A stretch of 64,000 bases of DNA from Dudresnaya verticillata (Eukaryota), in NCBI GenBank assembly GCA_977862235.1, contig OZ374561.1:1550001-1614000 (forward strand). Reading direction: 5' to 3'. Below the pieces are notes generated by a model, which was not told where the DNA came from, searched no databases, and saw only the letters and a program-made list of their open reading frames with translations. The position numbers were made by a program, and so were the translations under genes. Of this stretch, positions 8,524 through 32,010 are shown one piece after another; position 1 is the stretch's first letter, and every line of letters begins with the position of its first letter.

Positions 8524-8549
8524 CCCAGTGTCAGGAGTTGGTACCCTTA

Positions 8550-11107: not shown

Positions 11108-11215
11108 GATGCAGTCGTAGAGTTGCTTGAACGTCGTGGACGATTAGCGACGAACGTCTAGAGACGGAAGGTCGGACGTCGCACGACGGAGTAACTCGTT
11201 GAAACGTAGCACACT

Positions 11216-11232
11216 TCTAGGTCGAGAGACCA
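11216..11232 (-). other. Primer binding site of E1
   Basis: TGGTCTCTCGACCTAGA, 2 nt inside the LTR end; near-identical to the PBS of E2-E4. Confidence 0.9.
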
Positions 11233-11234
11233 GT

Positions 11235-12146
11235 TGTAGTGCAAACGTCGATGACGAAACACCGCCGAGCAGTTCGGGGCTCGGTGGGTAGCGACGCCTG
11301 CGGCGATGAATGGCCTCGCCGTGGGCGTCTGGTGGTAGAGCGGTTGACTCGCCTTGGGCGGACTGTAAACGCCCTTGGCGGAAAAGAAGAACAAAAGAAA
11401 ACAGAAAGGGAACACGTCGAGGACGGGTAGAGACGTGGAAGCACGGAGGTAGACGCTTAGCCGTAGGCAGCGGTAGGGTACGCGCGTACTGAACGGGGAA
11501 GTCTGGACCAAGGCCGGCTTGTCGGGGTTTACTGTGTCGTCAGAGACGGATCAACTAAGTATAGAATTACCTAGCGGCGGCGACGCGGATGCACGCGTCA
11601 CGCGGGAACTCGGGACACGTGTTGTCCCGAGGCGCGTCTGACAGATCCGTCCGTCATGCAGCCGCGCTCCTGACAGATCACGCGTAGCTTCCCTGCGCGA
11701 GTCCTTACACCTACACGTGGACTACTTCCTTACAGCCGCGTGCGCCTCATGGCGCGTGCGATCTTGATTCACGCCAATCCCGATCCAGTCCGGATTCGGG
11801 CCAGCGATGCGGATGCGCCAGGCTTACAGGCGCGTGTCTTACACCCCTTAGTCCCGATGTGGGATCCCGATGTGGGATCCCGATCGGATCCGGATTCGGG
11901 CCACGCTTACAGCGAACATTCCCGCCACTGCGCCATGCGCGTACACGTGGCGCCGTACAGTGGCCGGGTTCAGGCGTGCGGTCTGCACGCCCAGCGAGCC
12001 GTTCTGGCCCGAGTGGCCAGCGGCATGCGTCGGTGACGTGTTTGCGCCGCGCGCGGGTTGAGCGCGCCGTTGGCGGTCGTCCGTCGGTAGACGCTGAATA
12101 TCAACCCGCTTGAAAGCGAAAACGGGGGACCCCCCCTGGCACTACA
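11235..12146 (-). repeat. 5' LTR of E1 (912 bp)
   Basis: Perfect terminal inverted octamer TGTAGTGC...GCACTACA; abuts PBS; internal GGATCC-like 6-bp array; homologous to the solo LTR. Confidence 0.9.
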
Positions 12147-12306
12147 AGACCCGCGAAACCAGCAAGGCTGTTTGCATTGGCCCGGTGGGGGCGGACATGT
12201 AGTGGACGTCCCAAACGGGCCGTTGAGGCAGTTGTAACCGCCACCAAAACGCCCGTCTCGCGACGGCCGCGTGGCGACGAAGCCTTATACGCCCATCCGG
12301 CGTCGG
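12147..12306 (-). mobile_element. Fragment of the E2 3' internal region, contiguous with 32729 onward before the solo-LTR insertion
   Basis: Joined to 32729 by the GTCGG target duplication. Confidence 0.65.
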
Positions 12307-12653
12307 TGTAGTGCCAGGGGTGGGCCTGTACTTTTCACTCTGAGCGTGCCGACGGAAAAGAGCCTCCGGCGTCCCAATCGCCGTTGGCGCTCGAACACGT
12401 CATTGACGACTGGCCCTCCGCCGTACGGACGCTGCAACCTCACGCTGGTGAGCATCGGACCCCGGGTACTGTACGCCCGGCGTGCCACAGATCCGGATTG
12501 TACACCGAGATCAACGGGGTATAACGCGCGGGTATGTGAGCCTGGCCGGGATCCGGATCGGATCAGGATCGTACATCGAGATCAATCATCGGGATCCACC
12601 GTAATGTAAGGCGCACGCCTGTAATGGCCCGCGCCTGCAACGCAGGCACCGAT
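12307..12653 (+). repeat. Family-1 solo LTR, 5' part
   Basis: Starts TGTAGTGCCAGGGG like the E1 LTR; preceded by GTCGG (12302-12306). Confidence 0.88.
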
Positions 12654-13552
12654 AACAACAATTTCGCCGGCTACAGAATTTCCAAAACAGAACAGAATTT
12701 TTTGAGGGTCCTTGAATCCCGGCGTTTGATAGCGCGTTGGAAAGGGGGCGCTACCCTGAGAGTAGTGGTGCAAACAGATCGGAGCAAACGCAAATAGTTT
12801 CGGAGTTATGCGCTCCGGCATATGGGCCTCCCCCGGGGTCGAAAGTTCCCGAAAGTTGTGATTTTTCCGAAAAGTTCCCATTAAAAATTCTCCAGAAATT
12901 GATTCTGGCCCGTCCCGCCGCCCGCGCCCCCGCCCCCCGACCGCACACCGCATTCTGGCGACTTCCCGCCGCATTCCGACGCGCTCGGACTTGGCTTCCC
13001 ACCGCATTCCGACGCGCGCTCGGCCACCTCCCCCCGTCCGACAGCCACTCCCACCATCACCCTTCCTGGTGCTGCTACTGGCCCACGCATTCCGCATTCT
13101 GGCGCGTGCACACGCGCTCTGCTTCTGCGTTGCGCGTAATGAGGCGCGCTTCCCCACCCGGGTGGGGCCCCTCCCAGACCCGTAGTGCCGCTCCCCGCCC
13201 CAGTCCTGCCTGTGACCGCACTCTGTCTCACGCTCCCTGCCGTTCACCGACACCTCGCCGTCACCCTTCCCCGCGCTCCTGCGTACCGCGCCCGGCCGCA
13301 TTCTGACACCTCCACATCAAGTTGGCGCATTCGGGCGCATGGTCAGCCCCGCCCAGCAGTCCCCCGACACGACTCCCTCACCCCTACCCCGCTCTCGAGC
13401 GGCACGGTCACCCGCATTCTGACCTGTCCTCACAACTGGGCCCACTACCCGTCCGACCTGGTACACTACCAGGTAGCTAAGCCACTTGCGCACCCGCGGT
13501 TCGGACTCAACTTGTGGCGTAGACTGACGCTACAGGCGTCGATTTCCCTTGC
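12654..13552 (+). repeat. Left TIR (~900 bp) with reiterated CGCATTC motifs
   Basis: 12654..12956 is the reverse complement of 31704..32006; 12951..13552 is the reverse complement of 25327..26035. Confidence 0.93.
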
Positions 13553-13729
13553 GGTTCTGCACAACGGCCTGACCCCATTGCATTCTGTTGTCTGCGCCGC
13601 GTTTATTGCGCCGCAGCTGAGGACCATGCCATACTTCAGTGGGGCACATCCCCGATTGTAGGCCGCCAAATGGACTGAATCGCATTGCTGTGCTCATGGG
13701 AGAAGGCCACCACTTTACTATCTCTAAAG

Positions 13730-14670
13730 TTAGCAATCGCTGCTATCATGCTTGCGCATATACAGCCCTTCACAACTAGACAGTTCATTGTTCAGGCTCC
13801 TCATGATGCACATCCTCACCTCCGGTTTCATTGCGCGGCTGTTGGACATGTATAATTTTGTGCAAAGCAGATGTGTGTAGCGGTCCAGTTGATACGCGTT
13901 CTCTCCGCCCCTGTGCAGCGTTTCGACGATCGCGAAGTCTATAGCATGGGCTGCACCGTGTACGTACTTGCCCCTTCCCACGAGAAGGATTGTCTTCAGC
14001 AACAACCTGTACAACTTTTCCAAAGCTTTCTGATGGTGGGAATGCTCCATCATCGTCTTGTCTGCGTAAAATTGCTGTGATGATTCCCAAGCCATTTGGG
14101 CACGATCCAGGTCATTGTGGTTGTCCAGAATGTCGTCGTCACTGCTAGGGCTTTGGTGCGTCCATTTTCGTGCCTCACGATTAAGATCTTCCTCCATCCG
14201 ACGTTTAACGGCGCTGTATAGCTATTACACATCCAGAATCAAGTAATCCATGGTCTCAATACAGCGGTATTCTGGTCACAGCATATTATGGTGGTGAACG
14301 AACACTTCGTTTCATCTCAGCTCTCTTTCCGAAATGGCCGAGGCCTTTAACTGCGATAGGATCACTGCGTGCCCGGACAATACATGGTCCATCTTTCCAC
14401 GAGCTCACGGGTGTCCATTTCATATGCGTTGGAGATAGCCCTGGGCGCACTCCGGTACGTAGTTGATCAATCACTTACTGCCAATATGCCGCAACGTTGC
14501 CAACAACTGCAGCAGTACGGCACATGTGCCACACTCGCGACAGCCTTCCGTGACAGATTCTGTTTGGTGGACCAAATATAACCCCCGCGTTCATAGTACG
14601 GCACGTGGAAGCACTGGCGTTATTCGAGTAAATGGTGCCTGAAAGACGTCGAATTCATGGACCATGGCGG
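13730..14670 (-). pseudogene. Disrupted ORF of unknown function directly downstream of the MTase
   Basis: Collinear minus-strand ORF pieces (14286..14474, 13730..14197) with protein-like composition; no family recognised. Confidence 0.4.
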
Positions 14671-14759
14671 AAGCAAGACGCAAAGACATGTTCAGAATAC
14701 GGATGCTCGAGAAATGTTCAATTCGGCCTATGACAATAGTACTGTAGTGACTATAATTC

Positions 14760-17747
14760 CTAACCAATCTTCTTCATGTTGTGCAAGTCCCACGAGAACA
14801 ACAAGCCGTTTAGGCCCTTGAGATTGGCAGGAGGGTCCTCTACTCCCTTGAATATATACGGATACGAACTTAGCTCATACTCCGCCATGACCTTCAAACT
14901 GTAGACGACCACAAGATGCTCCCCTGGGTTGGCAGATTCTGACAGATCGTGGCCGTGCAAGCGTTCATTCCAGTTCCCTCCTGGAGTCTTTTCAGGATGC
15001 AACACGGCCTCCCCCACTTCCTTATCATTTGCAAGAAGCGTGACTCTGTCTCCGGCCTTGGGCATTGCACAAGGTTCAGGTGTTTTCCTTCTCCTGCACT
15101 TTTCATTCTGCTCCACACTTCCTACAACTATGTCTTCACTCCTGCCGTGCTTCTCGATACTCTCTTCGGGGTCATCCAATACGTGCTCGGACGGTGTTGT
15201 GAGATGGGACATTTCAGGTCCCTTCTTCGTTACGGAATGGTTTGTTGGTTGAGCAGAATCTGTTTTGACAACACTACCTCTTGCTGCCTCACCGATACCA
15301 TTCAGTTCGTCATGAGCACTTGATTCCAAACGTTTACGACCTGTCTTCATTTTATATGCTTCCGTGGCAAGCCTACGCAAACGTTCAGCCCCCAGCTTGA
15401 ATGTTTCGACCTGTAATTCGATTAGTGTACACCGACGATCTGTTCTGAGAGCTGCAATCCCAGTCGTCATGGTTCCGCTGTGCATATCCAGAACTGACCC
15501 ACCCTCCGGGCAGAATGTTGTCATTATCTCCACAAGTACTTCGGGAGACTTCTCTTCGACCAGAACTGGGGACTTGGTGCCTGGGCGTAGCAACTTGTGT
15601 TTCGGTGTTGGTAGAGAGGACATGCACGCGAATTTCCGCTTTTCTGGGGAGGGGATGCAGTGATACTCGCTCCTAAGGTCGAGCGAGAACCCTCCGCCAT
15701 GCTGACCTAGGGCACGCGCCATGACGGCTATTTCCACACAGTTCTGGGGCATATCGCTCCCCCGATGTTCCTGCATGGTCTTGGGGTCTTTGGAGAATAC
15801 GAATGGGTATGCTGGACACATGAATTGTGCCTTCTTCAGAGCATCGTGGAATACACTGAAGTTCAGGAATGACGTGAAAACAAACAACCACCCCCCTGCT
15901 ACAAGTACGCGCCTCGAGAACTCAACTATCTTCTTAATGTCTTCCTCGCTGAGGTAATTATCGAATGAACTCCCCGACTTAGACTGCGATTTCGGTGTAC
16001 CGTATGGTGGATCTGTGAGGATTAAATCGAATCTTTTGTCACCTTCCTTCATTACGGTACTGTCGTAGCTCTGCCATGTCATCTGAAAGCATGTCAGTTT
16101 CATTTCCGCAAGATAATCTATTGGAACAGAAAGCGATCCGTCCTCCACCGGCACAGGATTAGTACCCATGTTGAGGCGAACAGACTGCTTTGATGACACA
16201 GTTGATATAGTGGGGTCTGTGGGACTCTTTTCCGGTACAGAATGCTCTTTGGCTGCACATGCAGCTGTAGGGTCTGCGTTCTGGACGGGTGCCTGTCCAG
16301 ATTCTGCTGGTTCGCGAACTTCTTCCCTTTTCGAATTGGTTGATGTTACTAAGCACAAAACCTCGTCGTCGTTAGAGATTACGGTAGCGTCCACCTGCGG
16401 TGACAACGTGCAGTCCAAATTCTGTTGACCGTCAGAATCTTTTGCTCCACATGCATTCGAACCCAGGCGGGTCATGACAGCGTCATCACGTCTGCCTTCT
16501 GTCGAATCCATCACAGTTTGCAGATCTTTGTACTTCTGCAACTTCACTGGGGTCTCTTCCGTACAACACTCTCTGTACATCTCAACTATTGTTTTCAACA
16601 GTGTACGGTCATTACCTCGATTCATGATGACCTCGACGTCCAGCTTCGTAGTGTGTAACAGGTTTTCTCTTAATGTACTCATGCCTGACGGCCATTCTGT
16701 CCTCTCCCTCATCGCTTCAAATTTCCGAGTCTCGGAAAGGGCGGCTGAAGCTTTCACGAATTGCTCTTGTGTGTGTCTGGCCGAAACAGGTTTGAAATTG
16801 TGTGTCCTTGACACCTCTCGAAGCCTGTACAGGGTAGCTATTTGAACAGTAATGCCTTTGTCAGAGCTGCCTGCATTCATAAAGGCCTTGGAAGACTTGA
16901 TGGAACTGACGTGAATGAAGCGTCTGTATACTCTGCAATCCAGATTCTGCATCGCAACGTTTGAGTCTATGGCCTTTCCGGAAGCAGTCAACAGTTGCAT
17001 AGTTGCTAGTTCAGGGACCTCCTCCTTCATTATCTTCCCAATTACATCGATAACGCGACGGTCAAGAAGAAGAACGGTTGCCGCTGTCTGTTTGATAGCG
17101 TTTTCCGATAGGTGACTGCATCCATCGTATGCTTCGGCAACTGCCGTCGCAGTCGGAATCTTCCCATTACTGGCTTCGAGACGGTCTGCCTCTTTCCTCA
17201 GACCGCATATCTGATCGTAAAACGTGGTCTCTACAAAAAGGCTGGAGTCGTGCTTTCTGTTCTGATGACGAGCCAGTTGCTTCAGAATCTGGATGTTGTG
17301 CCCCCCTTTAAGCACAGTGGCAGTCAAAGCAAACCCCTTCCATGTCTCCCGGTCTTCATCGATTAGCTCCATAATGGCGATAAGTCGATGCATGCCATCA
17401 ACCACTCCGAACCACTCCGACCGACTGGAGGCCTCTTCTTTCACCTGTTTCTTTGTGTACTCTGTCCCATCCGCATTCCGTTTAGCTCGTAGAAACTCAA
17501 AAATGAAACTCCTGAAGGGACCTGTTAGGCGAGCCAGTACGGGCGCATCAGAACCGGCAATGTACCCGTTGTTGTAGTTAGCGCTCCTCGTCCCACCACC
17601 CCTGAAAATCTTATTGAGCCTCTCAACACCGGATCTCGAGTCCCTTATATCAGTCATCGGAACACAGGACCTGGGGTCTATTCGAATGTTGGTAGACCCC
17701 TCCATGACATCTCCAAATAGTGCCTGTGCCATCTCCTCCTTCCTCAA
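14760..17747 (-). CDS. ParB/Srx-like domain fused to a beta-class N6-adenine/N4-cytosine DNA methyltransferase plus a C-terminal domain shared with the transposase
   Basis: VVDGMHRLIA (ParB-like, ~17385-17400); FDLILTDPPYG motif IV (DPPY at 16002-16013); RVLVAGG; EK.PEVL; SAM-binding motif I GGSVLDMHSGTMTTGIAA (~15470-15500); IEL. The IV-before-I order defines the beta class. Confidence 0.9.
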   Translation of the reverse strand: MRKEEMAQALFGDVMEGSTNIRIDPRSCVPMTDIRDSRSGVERLNKIFRGGGTRSANYNNGYIAGSDAPVLARLTGPFRSFIFEFLRAKRNADGTEYTKKQVKEEASSRSEWFGVVDGMHRLIAIMELIDEDRETWKGFALTATVLKGGHNIQILKQLARHQNRKHDSSLFVETTFYDQICGLRKEADRLEASNGKIPTATAVAEAYDGCSHLSENAIKQTAATVLLLDRRVIDVIGKIMKEEVPELATMQLLTASGKAIDSNVAMQNLDCRVYRRFIHVSSIKSSKAFMNAGSSDKGITVQIATLYRLREVSRTHNFKPVSARHTQEQFVKASAALSETRKFEAMRERTEWPSGMSTLRENLLHTTKLDVEVIMNRGNDRTLLKTIVEMYRECCTEETPVKLQKYKDLQTVMDSTEGRRDDAVMTRLGSNACGAKDSDGQQNLDCTLSPQVDATVISNDDEVLCLVTSTNSKREEVREPAESGQAPVQNADPTAACAAKEHSVPEKSPTDPTISTVSSKQSVRLNMGTNPVPVEDGSLSVPIDYLAEMKLTCFQMTWQSYDSTVMKEGDKRFDLILTDPPYGTPKSQSKSGSSFDNYLSEEDIKKIVEFSRRVLVAGGWLFVFTSFLNFSVFHDALKKAQFMCPAYPFVFSKDPKTMQEHRGSDMPQNCVEIAVMARALGQHGGGFSLDLRSEYHCIPSPEKRKFACMSSLPTPKHKLLRPGTKSPVLVEEKSPEVLVEIMTTFCPEGGSVLDMHSGTMTTGIAALRTDRRCTLIELQVETFKLGAERLRRLATEAYKMKTGRKRLESSAHDELNGIGEAARGSVVKTDSAQPTNHSVTKKGPEMSHLTTPSEHVLDDPEESIEKHGRSEDIVVGSVEQNEKCRRRKTPEPCAMPKAGDRVTLLANDKEVGEAVLHPEKTPGGNWNERLHGHDLSESANPGEHLVVVYSLKVMAEYELSSYPYIFKGVEDPPANLKGLNGLLFSWDLHNMKKIG

Positions 17748-17749
17748 GG

Positions 17750-18710
17750 GCTCACTTGACCCCCTGCTCCGCTTCTTGCGCTTCGAAATGGTGTGCGAGA
17801 GAAAGAGTCACTGTGCACGTGAAAACCGCTCTCCTTGAAAGAGTACGGAAAGGGGTACTGCATGTCCGACGAGTTGTCCAGATTCTGTTCAGAAAACCTT
17901 CCGCAAGAAATTCTTTACGTCCCCGGCTCATGTTTGCACGGTGCAGTTTTCGACTGACACCATACGGGCTTTCGACACACTGGACGGCGGCAGTACGACA
18001 TGGATGTGCCGCAAATTCCGAGATGGCACGGGAGGTCACGTGGATTGTTCACCGGGTGTGGGCAGTCTCCATCAGAACTATCCTTAGCACAGGCCGTACA
18101 GTTGGAATTGGTAGGATGCAGGTTTCAGCGGACCTGCAGGGCGAGATGTAACAAAGTCAATTAGGGCATGCTGCTCGCTGTCCCAGCCGACTTGGCCGGA
18201 CTTTGAAGTTGAGGCCGGCCTGGCCAGGTGCTGATACTGCGAGTAAAATAGCATGCCACACACGGTTTCGGTGAGTACTGGCACACCGTTGCCAGCGGCG
18301 TGCCAGCGGGGGGCGCGGCGGTCAATTTACGAGGAACAGGTTCTCGGGGGTGGGAGGTGTCAACACCTGTGCGTGCAATATCCGTATCAGGGAACAGGTG
18401 GGGCGAGAGCGCCGGGCCAAATAGCTGTTCATTTGATGTGGCAAAATGCGCTCTGAAAAACCTGTATAGATTTTCTGTCCAATGATATTGAATAAGCTTG
18501 TAAAAGGGTCTTTCCATTGGGCCGCCGTCAACACCTTTACAGCTTCTGAATGCGGCCAAGTCACATTGCTATGAGAACAGATATTGCGCTTCACGGCAAC
18601 GGAGGAGCCCAAAGTGCAATATCAGTATCGGGGAACAGGTCCTGAGAGCCAGCAAACTCCACAATCTATCTGGCCTCGGCGCTGCTCCCGCTCCTGCTGC
18701 TGCTCATCTT
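17750..18710 (-). pseudogene. Probable disrupted N-terminal extension or upstream ORF of the MTase gene
   Basis: The MTase frame stays open upstream apart from a TGA near 17808; the peptide LFPDTDIA is encoded twice (~18375-18400 and ~18615-18640). Confidence 0.4.
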
Positions 18711-19314
18711 CCCGTTCCGCACGCACAACAACCTGCACCCGTCGCACCTGTGCCTAGTTCATCCGCAGTCCGCGCTGCGCTTCGTCTGCCGCGCCGCCGA
18801 CACCCTCACGTACCTTGCCGTGGCATCCGCCCGCCTGCAAGTCCCCCTCGACCACTTGCGCCGCTTCGCCGCCGTCCCAATCCCCGCTAACGTCCGCGTC
18901 GACACGCAGCTCCACCCTCGCTTCGCCGTCGAGGTCATCGCGCTGCACCACCCGCTGCACTTAGCCTCCCTCGCGCGCGTGGACCACTGCCAAGCCGCCG
19001 TTCAAGCGCTCAACGCCTTCCTGCACGAGTCCCGCGTAGACTCGCACAACCCACTGCCGCACCCGCCCGCCTCGCTCTTCGACCACGCCCCGGTCGACGC
19101 GCGCCAGCCTGACCATGCGCCCACGCTTGGCCTTGAAACAGGAGGCGAGCAATTTACTCCCATTGATGGCATGAACGAGGGCGAGGCGCTGTATGTCGCC
19201 CATGGGCGCCCTTTTGCCACGTGATTGAAAGAGCAGCATACTTCAAACATCTGCAGCCACCCCATCACTGCTGCCGCAATACAACATCTGCATCCTCGGG
19301 ATGTCTCTTCAGAT

Positions 19315-19566
19315 ACACGGGGTTGAATGTACGGACATGTCGAGATAATCTTCTGACCTTTATCCCGGGCAATGTCGCAAACGAAATGCACGAGCTTTCC
19401 TGCAATTCCTTGGCCACGCATGCGACTCTGGCACATATGTACTGTACATGTCGTAGGCAGTAACCCCATCAACATCTTTCAGAGGATAGCGAAGAACAGC
19501 CAGGTCATCCACCCCTTCAGGGGTGAGCGAAAAACGATTCTCTTCCGGTTCATGTCGAATCGCCAT
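19315..19566 (-). pseudogene. Captured GNAT acetyltransferase (YjdJ/NATD1-like), frameshifted
   Basis: MAIRHEPEENRF..YDMYSTYVPES / MRGQGIAGKLV..ARDKGQKIISTCPYI across two frames; RGQGIA acetyl-CoA motif and C-P-Y signature. Confidence 0.8.
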
Positions 19567-20399
19567 TGCCGCTGCAGGAGTAGCGCTCACCTTCAGGCTG
19601 CAGGCCCTATTCCAAAACCTCTTGCTTGATGATGGGAGCTTTGGGGGCCCTAACGAAGGATATCCTAGCGGAGATAAGGGCGATGGGTGGGAAAAGATCC
19701 TTTCAGCAACGTAGCTGTGCAGAGCAGATGAACGCTGACAAAGACCTTCTGCTGCTGTCGACCGCACTACCCCAGGCTAGGAGGGTACTTGTCGAGAAGA
19801 TGGAGGTCAGTAAAATGGTGAGTTGAAATACCCATGCATCGTGGGAAATGCAAGAGGTTGAGCCGCGGGTAGGCGCAACATACGCTCACCTTAAAATGCG
19901 AGACGAGAAACTGTAGCGGGATTCGCATAGTCTGGTAAAGTGGGGGACCCTCGCCGGCACCGTCGTTGCTCGTGCAACTGGGAAATCGCTTGTTGCTGCT
20001 GTGGACGCAAGTAAGGGTGAGCGTGAATGTTTTTGAGGTCCAGAACGCTCGACGGAGAAACTTCCGGAAGACTGATGTATCGCATCGAAACTCAACGATA
20101 AAAAACAGGACGACCTCGCCATCCGGATTTAATTTGTCGGGGCTATTAGATACACTGTTCATGTTCTGCTGTCCAGGACGGTGCAGGACCATAGTGCCAT
20201 AGCTTTTGTTTTTGCGCTGTGGTGCACGGTTCATGAACAAAACTAGCCCCTGTTTGTGACTTTTGCAGTGATCGTACCGACAGTCAAGGGATGCCACTTA
20301 CTTCGCTATCAATATGTAGCAAGTAATCGCTGTCGACTTGCCCTGTCTCCACACTCTTGATCCTTGTTACGCCTAACGCCAAGCGCAATAAGACGCCAG

Positions 20400-21480
20400 C
20401 GTTTTGCGTGGCACTCATTTCATGTAGCACAAGCCAACACTCCTTCTTCTCCCGGGGCCCAGATTTCGGCATCTGCTTGAGCTCGAGCTCAAGGAGATGC
20501 CGAAATACCAGGATCCTGGTAGTCAAGTTTTCCGTACTGCAATACAAGCCCCTGATGCGGCCTTTGTATTCTCAAGGCAGTTAAACGATATCCCAACAAG
20601 AGCTTCGACTCGGTTACCTTGAAATGCTTACCGCCGACTTCGTAAATCAATGCTGCTGCTGCCCGCAGGCAAGCATGAAATAAGTCTTCTGTATATGTGA
20701 CTAGTCCTGCATTTCGTGAGAGAACGCTGACAATTGTTTCCGACATTTCTCCTGCAACGGAAGCTTCGTTGGGAAGGGTAAGTTTCAGGAGCTTTTGCAC
20801 GTTGTTGACTGCATTCAGAGTTAAGGAATCCTGGGATATTCTCAGCGATTGGACAACCATAGGCAAAAAGGGCTCTACCATTGCTTGTAACTCACGTGAT
20901 TCTGTACCAGAGCCCATTACGACGTCCATGATCTTGCTGATCGTGCTTCCCAACAACAGCATACCAAAACTGATCATTCGGTGCCTATTAGCTACAGTGT
21001 TTCTCAGTTCGTCCTCTTCACCACGCGAATCAGAAATGGCGGTAATGAGCTCCTTCCCCTTCGGCTTTGTGCCTTCGGTTAGAGATTGATGACTGACTGT
21101 GAATGCATCAGCTGAGAGCACAGAACTATTCGTAGAAAGCCCTCGAAGCAGTTTTTGTAAGACGATATCAAGCCGTGGTAAGAGCTTAGATGAAGATGTT
21201 TGCACCATCACTTCTTCGAATGGACATTCGATCAGCCCGGACTTATCACACTCACTGCGCCTGAATGAAATGTTGCGAGTCGGGCGATGCGTTTAACACA
21301 TTCATAAGCTCTCGATGCACGTGCCGAAGCCTCCCTCTGTCTTGAGCTGGAAACATTCGGGTCTTGAAAGTCATTGCCAATAACAGATACACCGCTTTCT
21401 AACTCTTCCATCAAGTTCGTTGTAATGCTAGGAACAAGTTCATCATTTGGATACACAGGCGCGGCAACATTCTCAGCTTC
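20400..21480 (-). pseudogene. Captured internal fragment of a HEAT-repeat protein resembling UTP20 (SSU processome)
   Basis: Blocks RGLSTN, NRHRMISFGMLLL, AMVEPFLPMVVQSL, LLKLTLP and DLFHACLR resemble my recollection of UTP20; frameshifted; no gene start or end. Confidence 0.6.
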
Positions 21481-22231
21481 TCTATTGCCGAATTCTTGAA
21501 CGCCAATGCGTGCCGTCCAGGATGAGCATGCTCACCCACGCACGGCAATCTGCAGACGACTCACACGGTTCGCAGTGCGGACGGCTGAGATGAGCTAGGC
21601 CCGTTCGGCTGATATGCGCCTGCCCATGATGCCCGCGCTCACGCCAGGCTTGGTAATGTGCGTCGTGAACCGGACGTTGTTGTCGAGGAGAGATACGAGC
21701 CCTGTTGTCTGCTTCGCCGATCCCAAAACCATCAGAGAGACTGAAACAACTGGAGCAGCAGCATTGCCATTCGTGCTGTGCGGCAACTTCCTTGGAAGCG
21801 TGTGAAAACGATATCAACTCGTGATGTCGGCGCTCTGCAGCCGCCAGGACACCCCAGGGTGACCGTCAGCTTTATGTGTCCGCCTCCCAGAAGCTGCAGC
21901 TTGTGTGGCTCCGCAGGCATGCGGAGAGTTGTCCTGAAATGTAATTGGCCAAGTGCAGAACCAGAATCTGATCACAAACAGAATCTGGGTTGCAGAATAA
22001 CCCAGATGCACCCCGTGCAGCCACTCGTGCCGCTCCACGGGTGTGAAGCCTCAAGAGCAGGCAACAGGCGGCGCGCCGCGGTATCACAGAGGGTATTTAA
22101 TGCGCACGCGTTTTGCTGCGAAGTGCTGCGCCTCCCCACCAGGTCGGCCAGGTGCCTTAACAGACTGCAAAGTGGGCGCTCTGCTTAGAGCGTGAAGGGA
22201 AGACAGAACGAGTGGCACTCTCACAAGCTGT

Positions 22232-25200
22232 GTGCAGATACCGTCGCGGAAGGACATTTTGAACGACATGGAAATGAGCCCGGCAACTACGGATTGTGCT
22301 GAGCGAGAAAATGAAGCAAAGAAAGGAGGAGGCAGCGCGCGCGACGAAGGGCGTGTTGCTCTTCTGTATGACAGGGAAATGGTCGGCACTGCTATTGTCA
22401 AGAGACCGGGGACAAAAGAGGACGCAGACCAGTCTGGCAGGTATTGTGTCAGCCTGCATGGCCACAAATTGTCTCCCAGTCAGAAAAAAGGGGAGAAGCT
22501 GGTTGTGGTTTACCGAGCACAAATCATCCAACCGTATGAGAAACTTCAGTACAAATACAAGTACAAGAGAACGGACTCAGTTCCGCACACACTTGGGGAG
22601 ATGGGTGGGGGTTTTCATGCATGGGATGTGAACTACATTCAGGAGCTCGGCAATCGAGAAATCGCGCCGTTGTGCCAGAGACGGGTGTACTCTCCACGAC
22701 AGGGCATAGTTCGTCGCAGAATTTACCCAATACTGAGCAATTGCCCCCCGACGTCAACTGCAGAAAACACTGCCGCAGCGGTGGTCCCTACCGCATCGCC
22801 CCAGCAGATGACACCAGTTGACACGACCAGGCTAATATCACCCCTCCAACAACGTGCGGGGCCGCAAGCGGATGCCGCAGCGCGGTCAATTCGAACAACA
22901 CCCCCGCCTGGCAATGCTCCGAGCAGTGAGGAAATGAGTGAACCGCGAGAGCATTTGAGGGAGGCCAGCCATGATGATGCGGACGCCGTACGACACGTGT
23001 CGGAAGGTGATGACAATGCGTATGACCCTTTTCAGAAGGTGCAGGTCAGGACAAAGCGAAAGTATACTTACAGGAAGAGAAAGCAGCAGACCTTCAGTGG
23101 GAGAGGAAGTCTTCAGAAGAGACGTAGGCACCTGTTCAAAGACCTGGAACGCGCAAACACGCAGTCAATGAGATGCTGCATCGGGAACAAGTGCTTCCAA
23201 AGTGTGGAGCAAGTGTACTTAAAGGCGGAGGCGCGCAGAATTGCCGGAATGAACGTAGAAGCAAGGCGAACGTATCTTCGCAATCTGTTGGACACGAGAA
23301 AGATGAAATACTTTTTCAACCACCAGCCTGTCTGTTGCAACTTTCTGGAGCAGGCCTTTGGATTCTCCCGTGACTTACAGACCTCTGTAAAAGGCACGAG
23401 GCAGGCCCGGAAGCTGCAGCTCCCAAACAATGCGAGGCGTGATACCTCATCCCATCAGCAGGATACTATCATTTGCTTCCTTGAACGTCTTGCAGACAGC
23501 ACTGCTGAACCAATGCCCGATAACGGGGAGTTACACCTCCCCTACTTTCAGAAATCAGTTGTGTATGACATATTCAAATTGGACCACACCAGGCTGTACA
23601 GAAACAGGGAAATTCCGTGACAGAGTTACTTTTACTTTGTATGGAAACACAGTTGCTCCCGCATTAAGGTGCGAAAGACACACCGATTTGCAAAGTGCAG
23701 CGAATGCGAACTCATTCGCGAGCGACTTGCTCAGGCAGGGACCTCTGGAGCAGGCACTGAACACCTGCATGAGCGGCGCAACATTCACTTGAAATTAATA
23801 CAGGCAGAGAGACGTGAATATCAGAAAAAATGTGAGAAGGCGATACTATTGCCACAAGAGTATTGCTCCCTCATAGTGGATGGTGCTGATCAGTCCGCAT
23901 TTGGACTTCCCCATTTTGTGTTGTCGTCCAAAGCCAGCATTGGGCATGCCATGAAAGCGAAACGTATTGGGGTGCTTGAAAACAGGGCTGAGAAGCGTCT
24001 GCACTTGTACACAATGACCGGTGAGTTCGAGACCGGCGCGAACCACATTATCGAGGCGTTGCACAGAACGCTTTCGGACAAAATAGTCCAGAGGAGAGCT
24101 ACAAGGGACTTTATTTCTACAAGTAGACAACTGTTCGAGAGAGAACAAAAATACCTTTTTGTTCTCATACCTGGAGAGTCTCGTTGCATGGGGTGTGTTC
24201 CAAGAGGTCTTCGTGTCTTTCCTGCCCGTCGGGCACACTCACACAGATATAGATCAGGCCTTTTCGTGCACGGCACGCCGGCTTAAAGTTCGGGACGCAG
24301 TCACAATGACTGATTTGATGGAAGAGCTTCGGCAGTCGTACAGTCCAGAACCAGTTGTCAGTCGCATGCTTCAAATTACGAATTTCTCAGGCCTGTGTCG
24401 ACAGGAAGGATGCATTGGTAATGTTGAGGCATTCACGACCTATCGCTATTTCAGATTCCACCGTGTGGGTCCAGCTGCGACGGAAGAGGCAGAATCTGTT
24501 GCAGCTTTCGTGACAGGCTGTCAATTGAGAATGACATGCGCGGATGACTGGGTCCCGTTGCAGACAGGAGGAGAGCATAAGGGGTTCATACTATCCCCTC
24601 CTGACCTTGGAAAGACTCCAGCAACAGTGGTCAAATCGCCGCCAGATTTGAAGGAAGTCAACGACAGGTTTCGTTCTGAAGAGACACGTGTGAATGACAC
24701 GGGAAAGAAGAGGGAGCTGCAGGAATTGCGGGACCACGTGTACAGAGATAGGCTGGAAACGTTTCATTGGGATATGGGACGCATATTTGAGACAAGGGGA
24801 AAGTAGAGCGGAAGAGTGGCGCTGGAGTACGTACCGGAAGGGGATGACGGTGAGGAGGAGACTGTGACCCCCTCTTCAGACCTGCAGTACACGAAGAACT
24901 GCTTCGTTGCCGTTGTGAGGGAGAACGCCACCGCACGATGCCCATTTTGGATTGGACAGATTCTAGACGTTGTGCAGGACGCTACGGGAAAGGCTACTGA
25001 GCTGTATATAGGATGGTACGAGGCGTATGACTGTAAGGGTGCTTGGGACGGAAAGTACAAGGCATCCATATACTCAGCGACTAAGCGCTTGGGACGGAAA
25101 GTACAAGGCATCCATATACTCAGCGACTAAGCAGCCATGGACTGGTACTGTCGGCGTCGCGACCGTAATGGTCGAATTCGAAGCTCTTACGAAGAGACGT

Positions 25201-25266
25201 CTACCGCAGCTCGTCCAGAAGAGAATCAGAGAATCGCCGTTGTTAGTTAGGTATGCCGGCTCTTGA
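22232..25266 (+). pseudogene. DDD-type transposase (Sola-like / DUF7869-type), ~1000 aa when repaired
   Basis: KCSEC..H..H zinc motif; IVDGADQ; LFLQVDNCSRENKN; FLPVGHTHTDIDQAFS. Stops at 23618 and 24804; frameshifts near 24085 and 25087. C-terminal FWIGQI..LYIGWY domain. Confidence 0.82.
25041..25132 (+). repeat. Exact 46-bp tandem duplication that frameshifts the transposase C-terminus
   Basis: GCTTGGGACGGAAAGTACAAGGCATCCATATACTCAGCGACTAAGC twice. Confidence 0.95.
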
Positions 25267-25326
25267 TACGAGAAACAGCTACAACCAGTAAATTATACTC
25301 TCAAATTGATGCAGCACACGATAAAT

Positions 25327-26035
25327 GCAAGGCCATTCGACGCCTGTAGCGCCCGTCTACGCCACAAGCTAATTCTGAACCGCGGGTGCGCAAACGGCTT
25401 AGCTACCTGGTAGTGTACCAGGTCGGACGGGTAGTGGGCCCAGTTATGAGGACGGGTCAGAATGCGGGTGTCCGTGCCGCACGGGAGCGGGGTAGGGGTG
25501 AGGGAGGCGTGTCGGGGGACTGCTGGGCGGGTCTGAACATGCGTCAGAATGCGGGCACTTGACGAGGACGTGTCAGAATGCGGCCGGGGGCGGTGCCCAG
25601 GACTGCGGGGAAGGGTGAGGGAGGCGTGTCGGGGGACTGCTGGGAAGGGCTGACCATGCGCCCGAATGCGCCAACTTGATGTGGAGGTGTCAGAATGCGG
25701 CCGGGCGCGGTGCGCAGGAGCGCGGGGAAGGGTGACGGCGAGGTGTCGGTGAACGGCAGGGAGCGTAAGACAGAGTGCGGTCACAGGCAGGACTGGGGCG
25801 GGGAGCGGCACTACGGGTCTGGGAGGGGGTGGGGAAGCGCGCCTCATTACGCACAAGGCAGAAGAAGAGCGCGTGTGCACGCGCCAGAATGCGGAATGCG
25901 TGGGCCAGTAGCAGCACCAGGAAGGGTGATGGTGGGAGTGGCTGTCGGACGGGGGGAGGTGTCCGAGCGCGCGTCGGAATGCGGTGGGAAGCCAAGTCCG
26001 AGCGCGTCGGAATGCGGCGGGAAGTCGCCAGAATG
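25327..26035 (-). repeat. Right TIR, inner part (with an extra internal sub-repeat)
   Basis: Reverse complement of 12951..13552. Confidence 0.92.
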
Positions 26036-26675
26036 TATTTTCCGTGGGCCTTTGCAACTTTTTTTGCAACTCCCCCTGCGCACCACTGGGGCCAATGTCA
26101 CGCTGATTGCAACTCCGTCAGAAAGACTCGAATGACTGGCTCAATTGTCACGCAACCACAGGGCGGAAGGCGTGCCGTGTCGCACAGCTGTGCTACTGTA
26201 CTATACTGTACAGTAGTACTGTGTACTCTCGCGCCGTCCCGGACTGCCATAAATTCGGCTTCTGGCCCGTATATAACCCGTGCTAACATTTCAGACAATT
26301 GAAACAATTGAAAACAATCATACTAATAATGGCGAGCTGATCTGTGCTAGCACGCTTCTTTACAATCACTGCTGTAATAAATGAGTCCATCTCTCTAATG
26401 ACATATTCATATTGTACTGGAAGACTGTTTCGATGGCGCTGTAGAGCTGTGCCTCGCAACCACAGTCATTACTTCGCGCGAAGTCACAGTGGGTGTGACC
26501 GCAACTCAGTTGGACGTCATTCAGATTAAACAAGCAAGGTCTGAGTGCCGGCGACAATTTGCTCTGAGAAATACCCTCGTCCGCCTGCTTCTTCAGCTCT
26601 CTTCCACACTCGTACATTGCTGGATGCGCGCTCGGCGCGACTAGACGCTCATAAGATGCAGACACACAGACGTTA

Positions 26676-27830
26676 GTGTCACAGTCAGAGTCGCCAATCC
26701 ATCTAACATTGTTGCACCAGCAAGGTCAACCTTGCTTGAGGGCAAAGGCATTGTCAAGACCTCCTCGCGCCCCGTTCCTCCCCTCTTTTGCGCCAACAAT
26801 GCTGGCTATCTCTGATGCATCTCAACTGTCCACAGAGCCTCCGAATGAATCGTTTTCGAGAGGTGGGGCATCACCACGCCTAAGTCAATTCTTTTCCTCT
26901 TTTGAAACGGCCCAAACTTTCTCTCAGCTCTGCACGAACAATGGGCGTGGTCAGCGTGCAATCATTGAAACCGCTGCACTGCTCAATCAAGTTTGGGGCT
27001 CCCGTGACCCGAATAACCCGGAACTGTGCTTCGATAATCATGATGGAAGACAGGGGACAGCCATTTACAGACCCCCTCGACGGATGGCTGGGGGTGTCGT
27101 TTTCCCGTGCTCTCTCGTTACCTCTGAAGGACTACCACCGCAGACAGTCACTATTGTAAACCACAATGTTACAATCAGCGCCTCTGCTCGGGTGATAACT
27201 GAAGCTGCTTTAGCAAGTACAAGAAAGTATATGGAAGAAACTCCGAAGGCAGGAAGCCATGAGTCTGGAAGAAACCATAAGAAGCGGCAGCTGACATTCA
27301 AGTCAAACAGAGGGACCAACGTTTCAATGCAGAAGAACCGCAACAAGAAAGGAAGATTTGAAAGGAAGCAACTGGTACTTCAAAATCAGTCTCGTGGGGT
27401 CGCGCCATCCATTCCGCTTCACACACGTGATCTTCGTACATTGCTGAGGCAATGGGTTGTTGGGGATCCCGAAAGGGGTCTACCTATACCGCTTGCAGAT
27501 TTTTCGTTGGCTCAAAGAAACGGGAAGGATGCATCCGGAAAAATTGTTAAGCCCCTGTATAGTAGGAGACGGGTTGTTGCGCTTGCGACACTCTTAGCGC
27601 TACAAGATGCCAAAGAGAATGGGAAGCCATTTGCCCAATCCATTGGCGTCAATCTAATCGAGCTTAAAAGGCCGAACTTGGAGCAAATTAGAATGTCGCA
27701 GTGGGAGGTTTTATGCAAGAAGTATTTACAGAGAGCGTCCAGGAAGCTCTCCGACGCTGAGATTATTTCTTTAGGGAAGAAAATGTACTGTAGTGATGTT
27801 TTAGATTTGCTGCCGGATTGCGGCAGTTAG
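26676..27830 (+). CDS. 384-aa ORF with a possible GCR1_C-like DNA-binding domain
   Basis: RDLRTLLRQWVVGDPERGLPIPLADF...LYSRRRVV resembles the W..G....P..L...YSRR pattern of GCR1_C. Confidence 0.5.
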   Translation: MSQSESPIHLTLLHQQGQPCLRAKALSRPPRAPFLPSFAPTMLAISDASQLSTEPPNESFSRGGASPRLSQFFSSFETAQTFSQLCTNNGRGQRAIIETAALLNQVWGSRDPNNPELCFDNHDGRQGTAIYRPPRRMAGGVVFPCSLVTSEGLPPQTVTIVNHNVTISASARVITEAALASTRKYMEETPKAGSHESGRNHKKRQLTFKSNRGTNVSMQKNRNKKGRFERKQLVLQNQSRGVAPSIPLHTRDLRTLLRQWVVGDPERGLPIPLADFSLAQRNGKDASGKIVKPLYSRRRVVALATLLALQDAKENGKPFAQSIGVNLIELKRPNLEQIRMSQWEVLCKKYLQRASRKLSDAEIISLGKKMYCSDVLDLLPDCGS

Positions 27831-30147
27831 ATAAATGCAGGCCTGCGATAATCTAACTGTCCGGGGGTAAGCAGTTGCAGCCCAGCATAGTAGCCAATAC
27901 AACCTTGTCAATTGTGTCAAGGGAACTATTTAGGTTTCTCTACAAACTTGAAGACTGGACAACAAGACAATGTGTTGGGAGCGGAATATTCACCAATGTC
28001 CTTGCTGTGGGGAAGACCAAATAGACTCGGCTTGTATCGTTGAGGTAGCTTTGAATTTTAGGCTACGATCAGTCGATGAAGCCTAATCACGGTTGGGAAT
28101 TTCACTACTGAGAACCGCAGTACTGTGAGAAGGAAAGGTATAGCACAAATGCAGCATACAACAAATATTATGGCATTCGATGCATTTCTCGTTAGGGCTC
28201 GACAAACGTTTACACGGATGAAAACGGGGCTGCCTTCATTGCCTCACAAAATACACATTGAAGTTATACTCGATCCAGATCACCCACAGCAGCAGGGTAC
28301 ATGCTGATCTCATCTTTTGTGCTTTTTATCCGAATGTTTAGACTATGTTTTAGTTGCGGTCTACGGTCTCTACAGTCTATTAGGCACAGACCTGCCTTCT
28401 GCATGTCATGGTTTAGCGCGAGTGTGAAATAGTAGAAGTACTGTACCGGACATCAGGTTTGATACTAGGAAACTACGCGTTGAGAACAACTATCAACCAT
28501 ACCCGTGAAGAAGAAAAACTATTCACAACGTACACATATGTATGATCTGTGCCTTTGAACAGAACTGTAACAGCGGCCGCTACGTATATCAATATCAAGG
28601 ATAGGTCTTAAACGAGAAACTAATATTGTTCTCCAATTGCTATAACGCAGTACGAATCATTCTGTCCCCGTGTTTCAATAATCACTTCGATGACATTAAT
28701 ACTACACAAAGCATTGTCGGGGGATGGATTACATCGGCCTAATGTGGACTACTCACTATTGGAGAGACATGAACAACTTTCGCGGGCAGTTGTTTAATGT
28801 CCCACAGATTCCCTGCCATAGAATTGGTCGTCGTCGAAGAAAGGCAATGATGTATGCGCTTTCAGGCCCGATTGTTGAGAACACCGATAGAATTGGGTAT
28901 TGACGGAATCATCGACATGGGGATCATCAACATGGGGACATTTACTTCAACGTCTCGTGCTGCTAAACTACTTTCGATGCCTCCCACAATAACTGTGAAC
29001 CCACGTGGGTATTGTACAACAAATCACACTTGCTTCGCAGCCACAGCGACCAAAACCGACAAGATACAATAATAAAGCTTCACACTATGTTGTCCGCATA
29101 CTTACCGACATTGACAGACACGGGCGGTACAAAATTTAGACCTTCACTCTCAACCACCTCACAAACAGTACTTTCGTAGGCTGCAAAGGAAATATTTCTG
29201 TACACTTCTAGTACTGGATGGCATCCTTGGTACGCCTTTCCAATCCCACAGAGGTGTCTTCCAAAGTCTTCGTAGTCTCCACAGGGGCCGCAGTAAGTGC
29301 TATCACTGACCCCTTGGACGTCCCTGTACGAGTAACAGGAACAGCGTTTCTGTATGGAAACCGTGTAGCACTGGAAGGGCCATGTAGATATGGACGTAGT
29401 GAGGAGCGGACGCAGCACGAAATAAAATGACCAGAACTACACTGTGACATCTCGACGGAGTATAAACCGTCTCCGCGGCATGTAGACCTACGTTGACAAA
29501 CCCCTTGTGCACGGCCGAGATAAGGCCCTCGTTCGACAGAGCAAAACCGGTACCTGAAGTAGGGGCAGCATTGAACGCCTCACTGATACCCATGGGTATC
29601 CGTGAGGCGTTGAATTGTGCACAATACGTCCCGTTCAGGGGCCGACGGCGTTGGATACGGCAGATATAACTGGCACACAGATCCCACGGAGACAGCACCT
29701 GACAGCAGAGCACATATACGGGAGCACGAGTGCCACAAATAAGGACAAGTCGAGTAAACATATTGAACTGTTGAGTCGGTAGGCAGCGGAGAGTTGATGA
29801 AGGGGAAGGGTTCATGGGAAGCTCTCTTGACTATGTTTGTACCTGTAATCACAGGTAGATGTGATGCGATGGAGTCGTGGTGCATGGGAATATTTTAGAC
29901 TGCGGTCGAGACGTTAAGGGCTTTAAGTACGGAACGGAAGGAACTATTGATTCGGTGTGAGATAACTGCAGCTTTTCATGGCTGGAATAATAAACTTGAA
30001 GGATGGCAAAGCTAAGAGCGTCGGCATGCAGGATGGAGCAGGACGCATTCTATGCAGAACGCTTTGTCTAATACCATTTTGGCATTGCATGAAACGAGAG
30101 AGAGATGCACTTTAGTTAGCGAGATCTTACTAGCCCCATAAGGGGGC

Positions 30148-31107
30148 TTAGCAAATGTCAGGGTCTAGACAACAGTCAACGAGCTTACGCCGATTAACAG
30201 CCACAGCTGCGCAGTGGAGAACTAAAGAAGTGAGACGAGTGAGGAGGGATAATTTCTCAGCAGTAGGAGATGTCCCCTTCTTCATGGCAAAGAAGGTGGC
30301 CACATGCTGTGCGCCACAATCGAAACCTGAACCCATAGCACCGTAGATGTCCATCATCATAGGATGGAGGTCAATGTTGTTGGTTGCGCACAAGCGGCGA
30401 AAAAGCTGTTTTTCTCCTCTTCGTGGAGATGGATTGCATGGTTCTGAGCAGGATGACCAGAAAGTGTATGAGATGAAACAACTGAGACGTCGAATGCCTG
30501 AGGCTTGGGGGAAAACCCAGGATCATCAACATACACGTCCATACGAAGTTGGTCGCGGCGGTCCTCACCGCTCGACTTGAGAAGTGTTGCAACTGTTGCA
30601 ACTGCGCGTGCACGTGTCTGCGGGCAAAGTACGGCTTTGTTCGGCAGAATAAGAGGTCCGAAACTGTTCAGTCCTACTACTGTAGTGTAGAAAATGTAGC
30701 AAAGCGATTCGAGTTCCATGGCATGCACAATCTATGTATAGAGCTAGAAGCATAGCTATACTACAGACTCTAGGTATTGTCAACGTAGATGTATATCGTT
30801 TGGCTCTGGGATGAGTCTGTGGATAACAGGTAGCTAAAATAAAATATAGGTTCTGGTTTGAACAACTGCAGTAAGGAAGTGGACTCGAAGCTTCGCAACA
30901 GGGCACACAACCACATTCAATTTGTAGACAATGTGACATGCAGTTATGGAAACAGCCATCATAGTGCGAATGGAGGGTCTGAAGTATCTGAACACTACCT
31001 CTCTTGATCGCAGTGCTCAGCCGTTCATGTAGTGCGACCGTGAAGCGCTTCCGTTTGCTCAGTGGCGTTTGAATTAGCACATTTGCATAGCGGTGTCCTG
31101 ATTGCAT
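30148..31107 (-). pseudogene. Degenerate Cys/His + restriction-like endonuclease region of CRE/R2-type non-LTR retroelement style, with no RT detected
   Basis: FTVALHERL..C..H.C; LRMD..AFDVSV..EEEK..C...LHPMMMDIYGAMG..LTSLVLH, spread over several frames. Confidence 0.55.
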
Positions 31108-31703
31108 TCAAGTATTGCATGCACCAGCTGTTAACGACTCAGGTTCGCAAGCACGCTCTTGCTTCCTCCAGGGGCCTTAGATGCTCTTTCGGTGGCACGG
31201 TTTGGATGAGGGGAAGGAACAGACCTGGCTTTTCCGAGCGGGTCGGGTAATCGGACTCAAATCGGTGTGCGCCATATATGGGATTGATACAGTAGATGTT
31301 CCCTTATTTAATTTAGACGCAGTACGGTACTCAGCGTATGTGACGGTCGTGACAGTAGTCACACCGCGCCGTGGAGGGACTGCCAAGATATTGTCTGACA
31401 CAGCTTTCTGGCGTGTAGGGCGCTTTCCGCATCGCAACTATTTCAATGATCTGGGAACTATGGGGAATTGCAACAGTGGGCAGTTTTAAGCGGAAATATT
31501 TGTTGCTATGCAGTTCCCTTCAGTTCTCCGGCAGTTGCGGGACGGTAAATTGACCGCGGAGAAGTTCGTCCCTCCGCGATGTGACTGGCCGCGTAAAGCA
31601 CGCCATCGTCACGTCACCCAATGGTGAGCGTTACGCTACCACGGCGCGTGACGTCACCCAATGTTATGACAACACTTGGCGAGTCCTGAGTTGCAATTCC
31701 CGT

Positions 31704-32006
31704 AGAATGCGGTGTGCGGTCGGGGGGCGGGGGCGCGGGCGGCGGGACGGGGCAGAATCAATTTCTGGAGAATTTTTAATTGGGACTTTTCGGAAAAATC
31801 ACAACTTTCGGGAACTTTCGACCCCGGGGGAGGCCCATATGCCGGAGCGCATAACTCCGAAACTATTTGCGTTTGCTCCGATCTGTTTGCACCACTATTC
31901 TCAGGGTAGCGCCCCCTTTCCAACGCGCTATCGAACGCCGGGATTCAAGGGCCCTCAAAAAATTCTGTTCTGTTTTGGAAATTCTGTAGCCGCCGAAATT
32001 AGTGTT
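31704..32006 (-). repeat. Right TIR, outer part
   Basis: Reverse complement of 12654..12956. Confidence 0.93.
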
Positions 32007-32010
32007 GGAT

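What the first reader, a model, noticed from the sequence alone, without database searches (positions are those of the whole stretch)
12654..32006. Giant TIR DNA transposon encoding its own ParB-fused DPPY amino-methyltransferase
Seen: ~0.9-kb TIRs enclose a DDD transposase and a divergently oriented 995-aa ORF with a ParB-like DGxHR motif and a beta-class DPPY MTase domain. Known: ParB + beta-class N6/N4 MTase fusions are typical of phages and bacterial mobile elements, and such MTases are sporadic in eukaryotes. Inference: a eukaryotic cut-and-paste transposon with a prokaryote-type m6A/m4C writer that could mark its own DNA (regulating transposition, anti-silencing or self/non-self discrimination). 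I do not know of a described Sola-like family with this cargo.
Basis: partly seen in the sequence, partly recalled or inferred. Interest (0 to 1): 0.92.

Follow-up and report, generated by a model that had tools for sequence, protein, structure and literature searches.

The report
Sola1 transposon carrying ParB-methylase gene
This is a decayed cut-and-paste jumping gene of a eukaryote that carries a bacterial-style DNA methylase gene, which likely marks the element's own DNA; the same design was described in 2025 in a brown alga, so it is a new member of a known kind.

Summary
The element is real, but the design is published. 12654-32006 is an insertion into an LTR-like sequence with ~0.9-kb inverted repeats (96% alike), AAC...GTT ends and a probable 4-bp target duplication. 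It holds a Sola1-like DDD transposase (two stops, a frameshift, a 46-bp duplication) head-to-head with an open 990-aa gene: ParB/Srx-like fold, then a beta-class N6/N4 methyltransferase fold with DPPY. The right repeat is split by a 5.67-kb nested insertion, so the core is at most 13.7 kb. The pairing recurs: 8 of 15 contig lengths of methyltransferase relatives equal those of transposase relatives (0.13 by chance), and five pairs co-diverge. The claim of novelty fails: Ectocarpus Sola1-1_Ec32 (PMC12477816) is a 21.5-kb Sola1 with an opposite-strand ParB-like + N4C/N6A methyltransferase gene, with the same self-marking proposal. Additions not found in my ten searches: a ~100-aa domain shared by the methyltransferase tail and the transposase head; 37 of 57 full-length relatives lack the catalytic motif; CCGCATTC is repeated in the repeats. 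This copy's methyltransferase looks to be decaying. Activity is untested.

The parts
12654..32006 (.). Whole Sola1-like element as it lies here (19,353 bp; 13,679 bp without the nested insertion)
   Evidence: flanks joined are collinear with a paralogous LTR-like sequence (score 276, best of 30 shuffles 46)
12650..12653 (+). Left copy of probable 4-bp target duplication (CGAT; right copy GGAT at 32007-32010, one mismatch; 2-bp and 3-bp readings are also possible)
12654..13552 (+). Left terminal inverted repeat, begins AAC; 6 copies of CCGCATTC (0.04 expected); two 117-bp units
13730..14221 (-). Stop-to-stop ORF of 163 aa downstream of the methyltransferase gene; no family match
14760..17732 (-). 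Accessory gene, 990 aa, open: ParB/Srx-like domain, helical region, linker, beta-class N6/N4 MTase, shared C-terminal domain
17238..17732 (-). ParB/Srx-like domain (aa ~1-165, DGMHR), followed by a small helical, HTH-like unit (aa ~170-225)
15342..16103 (-). Amino-methyltransferase domain (aa 544-797): DPPY at 16002-16013 precedes the SAM-binding motif (beta order)
14766..15071 (-). ~100-aa domain of no known family at the methyltransferase C-terminus, homologous to the transposase N-terminus
19002..19602 (-). Frameshifted GNAT acetyltransferase fragment (captured gene piece)
   Evidence: PF14542 E 1.1e-8 on 19002-19478; upstream half by eye
20489..21292 (-). UTP20-like fragment (captured host gene piece)
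   Evidence: PF20416 E 1.5e-4, below the curated cut-off
22268..25240 (+). Sola1-like DDD transposase, broken (2 stops, 1 frameshift, 46-bp duplication)
   Evidence: PF25273 E 2.1e-38; collinear with intact 978-aa homologue P0018; motifs against Sola1 profile
22331..22651 (+). Copy of the shared ~100-aa domain at the transposase N-terminus (35% identical to the MTase copy)
25327..26035 (-). Right terminal inverted repeat, inner part (three 117-bp units)
26036..31703 (.). Nested 5668-bp insertion between 6-bp direct repeats (AGAATG); 391-aa ORF 26655-27830 without family match
31704..32006 (-). Right terminal inverted repeat, outer 303 bp, ends GTT

Best explanation
This is a decayed copy of a Sola1-like cut-and-paste DNA transposon that carries a long-inherited ParB-plus-methyltransferase accessory gene, whose protein would, in working copies, likely bind the element's own ends and methylate them (probably N6-adenine). 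Shown: the insertion, the inverted repeats, the two head-to-head genes, the folds, the breaks in the transposase, the shared ~100-aa domain and the repeated CCGCATTC motif in the repeats. Inferred mechanism: the DDD transposase binds the repeats, excises and inserts with a 4-bp duplication; the accessory protein is brought to the motif arrays in the repeats by its ParB-like/HTH part and the shared domain, and methylates adenine there, which most likely keeps the element transcribed or competent in host chromatin (a VANDAL-like self-protection role). This copy cannot move by itself, and its methyltransferase is probably decaying too. Confidence: element class and recurring cargo about 0.9; active self-marking in working copies about 0.5.
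For: Structure of the insertion. Transposase triad motifs kept in 54, 53 and 54 of 55 homologues and in this copy; second and third motifs follow the published Sola1 profile, not Sola3 (by eye). Ends and duplication agree with Sola1-1_Ec32 (AACCG-CGGTT, 4 bp). MTase fold Z 22.1 to CcrM; DPPY in this copy and in 7 of 8 homologues; this copy sits in a clade of 6 that all keep it (support 99). Co-divergence of 5 pairs: r 0.905, 1 of 120 permutations. CCGCATTC: 14 of 18 window copies lie in the repeats, 6 in the left arm against 0.04 expected. In all 5 pairs at least one of the two proteins has the shared domain.
Against: No activity, target or expression data. 37 of 57 full-length relatives lack [DNS]PP[YFW], in whole clades, so catalysis is not needed family-wide. 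This copy differs at 14 of 107 otherwise invariant sites (relatives 2-8), including Y751H and A758G in the SAM-binding region; its lack of stops is not significant at 2% decay (P about 0.1). Paired transposases are not one clade (4 in a 10-row clade, P0033 apart), and co-divergence of 5 pairs could follow host kinship. DPPY does not fix m6A against m4C (PMC8885841). The motif arrays may serve the transposase alone. The ParB match is weak.
Confidence: 0.55

Rival explanations
1. The accessory protein works mainly as a DNA-binding or scaffolding factor for the element (a ParB-like clamp or reader on the repeats), and methyl transfer is dispensable.
For: 37 of 57 full-length relatives lack the catalytic motif yet keep long open frames; across the family the ParB-region Arg (88 of 89), DG (88 and 96 of 98) and SAM-motif Asp (93 of 97) are better kept than DPPY (26 of 90). 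An earlier scan note reports the same loss beside a Mutator-like transposase (unchecked).
Against: The clade that holds this copy keeps DPPY in 6 of 6, and 20 of 57 keep it overall, which suggests selection for catalysis in part of the family.
Confidence: 0.2
2. The methylase limits or times transposition rather than protecting from silencing: methylated ends block transposase, and hemimethylated ends after replication permit it, as Dam does for IS10/IS50 (recalled).
For: The shared domain on both proteins and the motif arrays in the ends would bring both to the same DNA; closest solved folds include CcrM-type cell-cycle methylases.
Against: No test here; fold likeness shows no function; only this copy among 5 pairs has the shared domain on both proteins.
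Confidence: 0.15
3. The gene is a passive passenger or separate selfish cassette that hops between transposons and gives the Sola1 element nothing.
For: Related accessory genes are reported to move among transposon families in red algae (bioRxiv 2025.02.11.637652); this element also carries clearly captured fragments; many transposase relatives on long contigs have no matched MTase.
Against: Pairs at 40-61% MTase identity with correlated distances and a domain shared with the transposase point to long joint inheritance.
Confidence: 0.1

Closest known systems
Sola1-1_Ec32 of Ectocarpus (PMC12477816, Genome Biol 2025; passages and supplement rows read, figure not seen)
   Same: Sola1 superfamily; giant size (21.5 kb); ParB-like + N4C/N6A methyltransferase gene (1104 aa) on the strand opposite to the transposase; AAC...GTT ends; 4-bp duplication; same proposed self-modifying role; nested insertions and broken transposases said to be common in such giants.
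   Different: Repeats here ~900 bp against 282 bp; ends AACA against AACCG; this copy is broken; the passages read mention no shared MTase/transposase domain. Sequence homology to the Ectocarpus proteins was not tested (no sequence at hand).
Plavaka accessory genes PAG2 and PAG3 of red algae (bioRxiv 10.1101/2025.02.11.637652; section 8 and passages read, supplements closed)
   Same: Giant algal DNA transposons carrying PF01555 methylase and ParB-like domains, with repeat arrays proposed as binding sites.
   Different: There the methylase is fused to SET (PAG2) and ParB to a 2OG oxygenase (PAG3), on an EnSpm/Plavaka transposase. Here ParB and MTase are one protein, no SET was found in this protein or 49 relatives, and the transposase matches PF25273 with no Plavaka match listed.
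Bdelloid N4CMT (PMC8885841; passages read)
   Same: Beta-class PF01555 enzyme in a eukaryote; among fold matches (Z 18.5).
   Different: Host gene with SPPY and a chromodomain that marks transposons; here DPPY, ParB-fused and carried by the transposon.
VANDAL/VANC anti-silencing proteins (as cited in the Bostrychia paper)
   Same: Transposon-encoded protein that binds and changes the epigenetic state of its own element (proposed analogy).
   Different: VANC causes loss of methylation and sits on Mutator-like elements; no homology tested.

Membership tests
Sola1 DNA transposons | DDD RNase H-like catalytic core matching the Sola1 profile | tested here: met
   By eye only: Sola1 profile consensus at positions 82-105 and 113-123 matches DNCxxENKN and FLPxGH; the Sola3 stretch read does not; Sola2's core was not read. 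The profile was not run. Motifs kept in 53-54 of 55 homologues.
Sola1 DNA transposons | Terminal inverted repeats | tested here: met
   861 of 896 columns
Sola1 DNA transposons | 4-bp target-site duplication | tested here: inconclusive
   CGAT/GGAT, one mismatch; 2-bp and 3-bp readings rebuild the same empty site; one copy only
Sola1 DNA transposons | Placement among curated Sola1 transposases in a tree or by direct alignment | not testable with these tools
   No Repbase sequences; no PDB relative at E below 0.13
Sola1 DNA transposons | Multiple dispersed copies in the genome | not testable with these tools
   No genome held
Beta-class N6A/N4C DNA methyltransferases (PF01555) | Catalytic motif IV before SAM-binding motif I, with the permuted fold | tested here: met
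   DPPY aa 574, motif I aa 747-756; above Pfam cut-off; Z 22.1
Beta-class N6A/N4C DNA methyltransferases (PF01555) | Intact SAM-binding motif in this copy | tested here: inconclusive
   His at the aromatic site seen in 2 of 97 family members; Y751H and A758G against 10 close relatives
Beta-class N6A/N4C DNA methyltransferases (PF01555) | Methyl transfer to DNA and identity of the base | not testable with these tools
   needs an assay
ParB/Srx superfamily | ParB-N/sulfiredoxin fold with conserved Arg and DGxHR motif | tested here: inconclusive
   Best matches are ParB, Noc, PadC, Srx, SerK but at Z 5.6-7.2 and E>=6.5e-3; no Pfam ParB match; one atlas cluster PF02195 at 0.91 with 106 of 256 features, rank 15; weak DndB match in one relative, E 5e-4. 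Works-like claim favoured.
ParB/Srx superfamily | CTP binding and clamp loading at a parS-like site | not testable with these tools
   needs an assay
Plavaka PAG2/PAG3 cassette | MTase fused to SET; ParB fused to 2OG oxygenase | tested here: not met
   ParB-like and MTase parts lie in one protein; no SET or 2OG match in it or in 49 of 57 full-length relatives scanned

The most novel reading that the evidence does not exclude
These elements run a bacterial-style self-recognition system in a eukaryotic nucleus: a nucleotide-gated ParB-like clamp loads at the CCGCATTC arrays of the ends and spreads adenine methylation along the element, while an unnamed ~100-aa domain, placed on the methylase tail, the transposase head or both, ties the writer to the transposase or to the same sites; whole clades have since turned into catalytically dead readers.
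Probability: 0.15. Interest if true: 0.75.

Novelty: new member of a known kind. Interest (0 to 1): 0.4.

Why it matters
The published idea that algal transposons methylate themselves with a ParB-fused enzyme rests on single families and is untested. This work shows the family is large (294 representatives at E<=1e-30), recurs with Sola1-like transposases, splits into motif-intact and motif-dead clades, and offers a candidate target motif and intact homologue pairs (such as P0004, or P0002 with P0022) for an assay. That makes an open proposal testable, but the system itself is not new and this copy is dead.

Tried and rejected
No genome held, so no copy count. Sequencing runs: none was listed. 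Context searches found no relative with DNA: metagenome scan gave 1 locus of 93 stretches, an ordinary bacterial methylase in a his operon; viral 0 of 31 and 0 of 7; prokaryote genomes 0 of 111 and 0 of 19. The shared domain matched nothing in Pfam, NCBIfam or the atlas (best 0.79), and only weakly in PHROGs (E 0.07); a likeness to the TNP1/DUF8039 domain of CACTA elements is recalled only. Its tree does not settle whether transposase copies form one clade (p-AU 0.187). The whole-protein fold search was filled by the MTase, so this domain's fold is untested. No Rfam match in 11000-33000. The nested insertion as a Crypton: 6-bp direct repeats fit PMC3212892 but Pfam gave no GCR1_C or recombinase match; left open. 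Rejected: Plavaka/EnSpm identity (PF25273, AAC ends); chance inverted repeat; one-off capture; mismatch spectrum of the repeats as a sign of methylation (5 of 17 transitions at CpG, uninformative). DUF7869 is in no paper of the library.
Full report
Observation. Self-comparison of the window finds an inverted repeat whose left arm is 12654-13552 and whose right arm comes in two pieces, 25327-26035 and 31704-32006. The pieces are separated by a 5668-bp insertion between 6-bp direct repeats; with it left out the arms match at 861 of 896 aligned columns, the right arm having one extra 117-bp unit. The two flanks, put together, align in order across the junction with an LTR-like sequence at 11100-12250 (score 276; left flank alone 143, right alone 197, best of 30 shuffles 46), so the element is a true insertion into a retrotransposon LTR. 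The ends read AAC...GTT and the flanks CGAT and GGAT, a 4-bp duplication with one mismatch; 2-bp and 3-bp readings give the same empty site. Total length 19,353 bp, 13,679 bp without the insertion. No genome is held. The host was not identified; Gypsy-type polyproteins around the element (by eye) and a UTP20-like fragment show a eukaryote, and an alga is an inference from the literature below.

Transposase. 22268 to about 25240 (+) is collinear with an intact 978-aa homologue, P0018 (39% and 55% in the two main segments), and is broken by two stops, a frameshift and a 46-bp duplication. It matches PF25273 (E 2.1e-38), a family named in no paper of the library. Three acidic motifs are kept in 54, 53 and 54 of 55 homologues and in this copy (P0073 of the 56 hits was left out). 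By eye the second and third follow the consensus of the Sola1 profile in the supplement of PMC5751038 (parts 59 and 60 read) and not the Sola3 stretch read (part 73); I did not run the profiles or read the Sola2 core.

Accessory gene. 14760-17732 (-) is open, 990 aa from the first ATG. PF01555 scores above its cut-off; the model (mean pLDDT 59) matches beta-class amino-methyltransferases over aa 544-797 (CcrM Z 22.1, rmsd 3.4, 223 aligned; Foldseek E 7e-11). The N-terminal 408 aa folded alone (pLDDT 73) has ParB, Noc, KorB, PadC, sulfiredoxin and SerK as best matches, consistently but weakly (best E 6.5e-3; Z 7.2, rmsd 3.2, 101 aligned). The word search found 8 full-length relatives among 7992 candidates scored (29-45%); the profile search found 294 representatives at E<=1e-30 and listed 150. 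Of 156 sequences examined, 57 cover both domains; 45 of the 49 of these that I scanned match PF01555 at E<=0.01 and none matches SET.

Does it travel with the transposase? I could not read the DNA of relatives, so I compared the contig lengths printed for protein records. Eight of 15 distinct lengths for methyltransferase records equal a length for a transposase record from the same source; shifting the lengths gives 0.13 on average and at most 2 in 600 offsets; 4 of 8 clusters are matched, one of them by 5 of its 6 members; three of the four unmatched clusters have only contigs under 5 kb (members were read for 20 of 56 transposase clusters). Distances of the five pairs, this one included, correlate (r 0.905, 1 of 120 permutations), though five related pairs are not independent and host kinship could do this.

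Shared domain. The last ~100 aa of the methyltransferase and the first ~100 aa of the transposase are homologous (35%, E 1e-18 for the pair). A profile built only from methyltransferase tails finds it in 6 of 8 methyltransferase clusters and in 4 of 56 transposase representatives besides this copy, and in 18 of 57 full-length family members. In each of the five pairs at least one protein has it, but only here do both, which argues against an obligatory like-with-like contact; truncated or intron-split gene calls could blur this.

State of this copy and of the family. The methyltransferase differs at 14 of 107 sites invariant in ten close relatives (those relatives: 2-8), including two in the SAM-binding region; the broken transposase differs at 9 of 167. 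Absence of stops has P about 0.1 at 2% decay. So an open frame here does not mean a working enzyme. Across the family 20 of 57 keep [DNS]PP[YFW] and 37 do not, clustered on the tree (6 changes against 16.7 in shuffles, 0 of 500 as low); a few of the 37 are near-canonical or poorly aligned, and this copy lies in a clade of six that all keep DPPY. CCGCATTC has 14 of its 18 window copies in the repeats, 6 in the left arm against 0.04 expected; it is a candidate site for either protein.

Mechanism. Shown: anatomy, folds, breaks, motif arrays, shared domain. Inferred: joint inheritance; excision and insertion by the DDD enzyme; binding of the accessory protein to the element's ends and adenine methylation there, most likely protecting the element's expression (0.55 for the whole reading). 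Rivals: binding without catalysis (0.2), methylation that restrains or times transposition (0.15), passenger (0.1). DPPY leans to m6A, but the domain has switched specificity repeatedly (PMC8885841, passages).

Known systems. [quoted passage not shown] 2011, reference line only; the Bostrychia paper). bioRxiv 10.1101/2025.02.11.637652 (passages and section 8; supplements closed, and its Table 6 may bear on novelty) describes giant Plavaka elements with methylase+SET and ParB+2OG genes. PMC6431247 (passages) notes 16-20 kb EnSpm in Chondrus; PMC4455052 (passages) lists Sola1-3; PMC3212892 (passages) gives Crypton end features. Homology to the Ectocarpus proteins was not tested. The shared domain and the motif-dead clades were not seen in the passages read or in the listings of ten searches. 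Earlier scan notes (unchecked) report like cargo on a Sola/DUF7869-like element in an animal and on Mutator- and Academ-like elements; look-ups by place and sequence gave nothing.

Verdict. Real, well supported as a Sola1-like transposon with recurring ParB-methyltransferase cargo; new member of a kind described in 2025; this copy is dead; function untested. Interest 0.4.

Noticed in passing
window 26036-31703: Nested 5668-bp insertion between 6-bp direct repeats, landed in a copy of the repeat motif; weak subterminal inverted motif (TTGCAAC); 391-aa ORF whose end recalls GCR1_C of Cryptons (recalled, no Pfam match); pieces at 30148-30731 (-) recall the 3' end of a non-LTR retrotransposon; hairpin at 29570-29615.
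   Followed up: partly
window 17733-22267: Space between the two genes holds a frameshifted GNAT fragment, a UTP20-like fragment, an unidentified frame at 18646-19224, a 44-bp hairpin at 20463-20506 and a 27-bp direct repeat (18373, 18614): Pack-type capture or a second nested element.
   Followed up: partly
window 13730-14221 (-): 163-aa frame downstream of the methyltransferase gene, same strand, no family match; possibly a third accessory gene.
   Followed up: partly
P0119-P0200: Large clades of full-length ParB-MTase proteins with EPPx or other degenerate catalytic motifs but kept SAM-binding motif: candidate pseudo-methyltransferases.
   Followed up: partly
window 17733-17807 (-): The frame is open 25 codons upstream of the first ATG and holds a basic stretch like a nuclear localisation signal; relatives have a similar N-terminal stretch, so the true start may lie upstream.
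   Followed up: no
window 282-11900, 32007-64000: The rest of the window is a nest of Gypsy-type retroelements (by eye), several with a further ORF of unknown kind (282-2171, 33468-35192, 54233-55435) and a 765-bp 98% direct repeat (44681-45445, 57217-57981).
   Followed up: no
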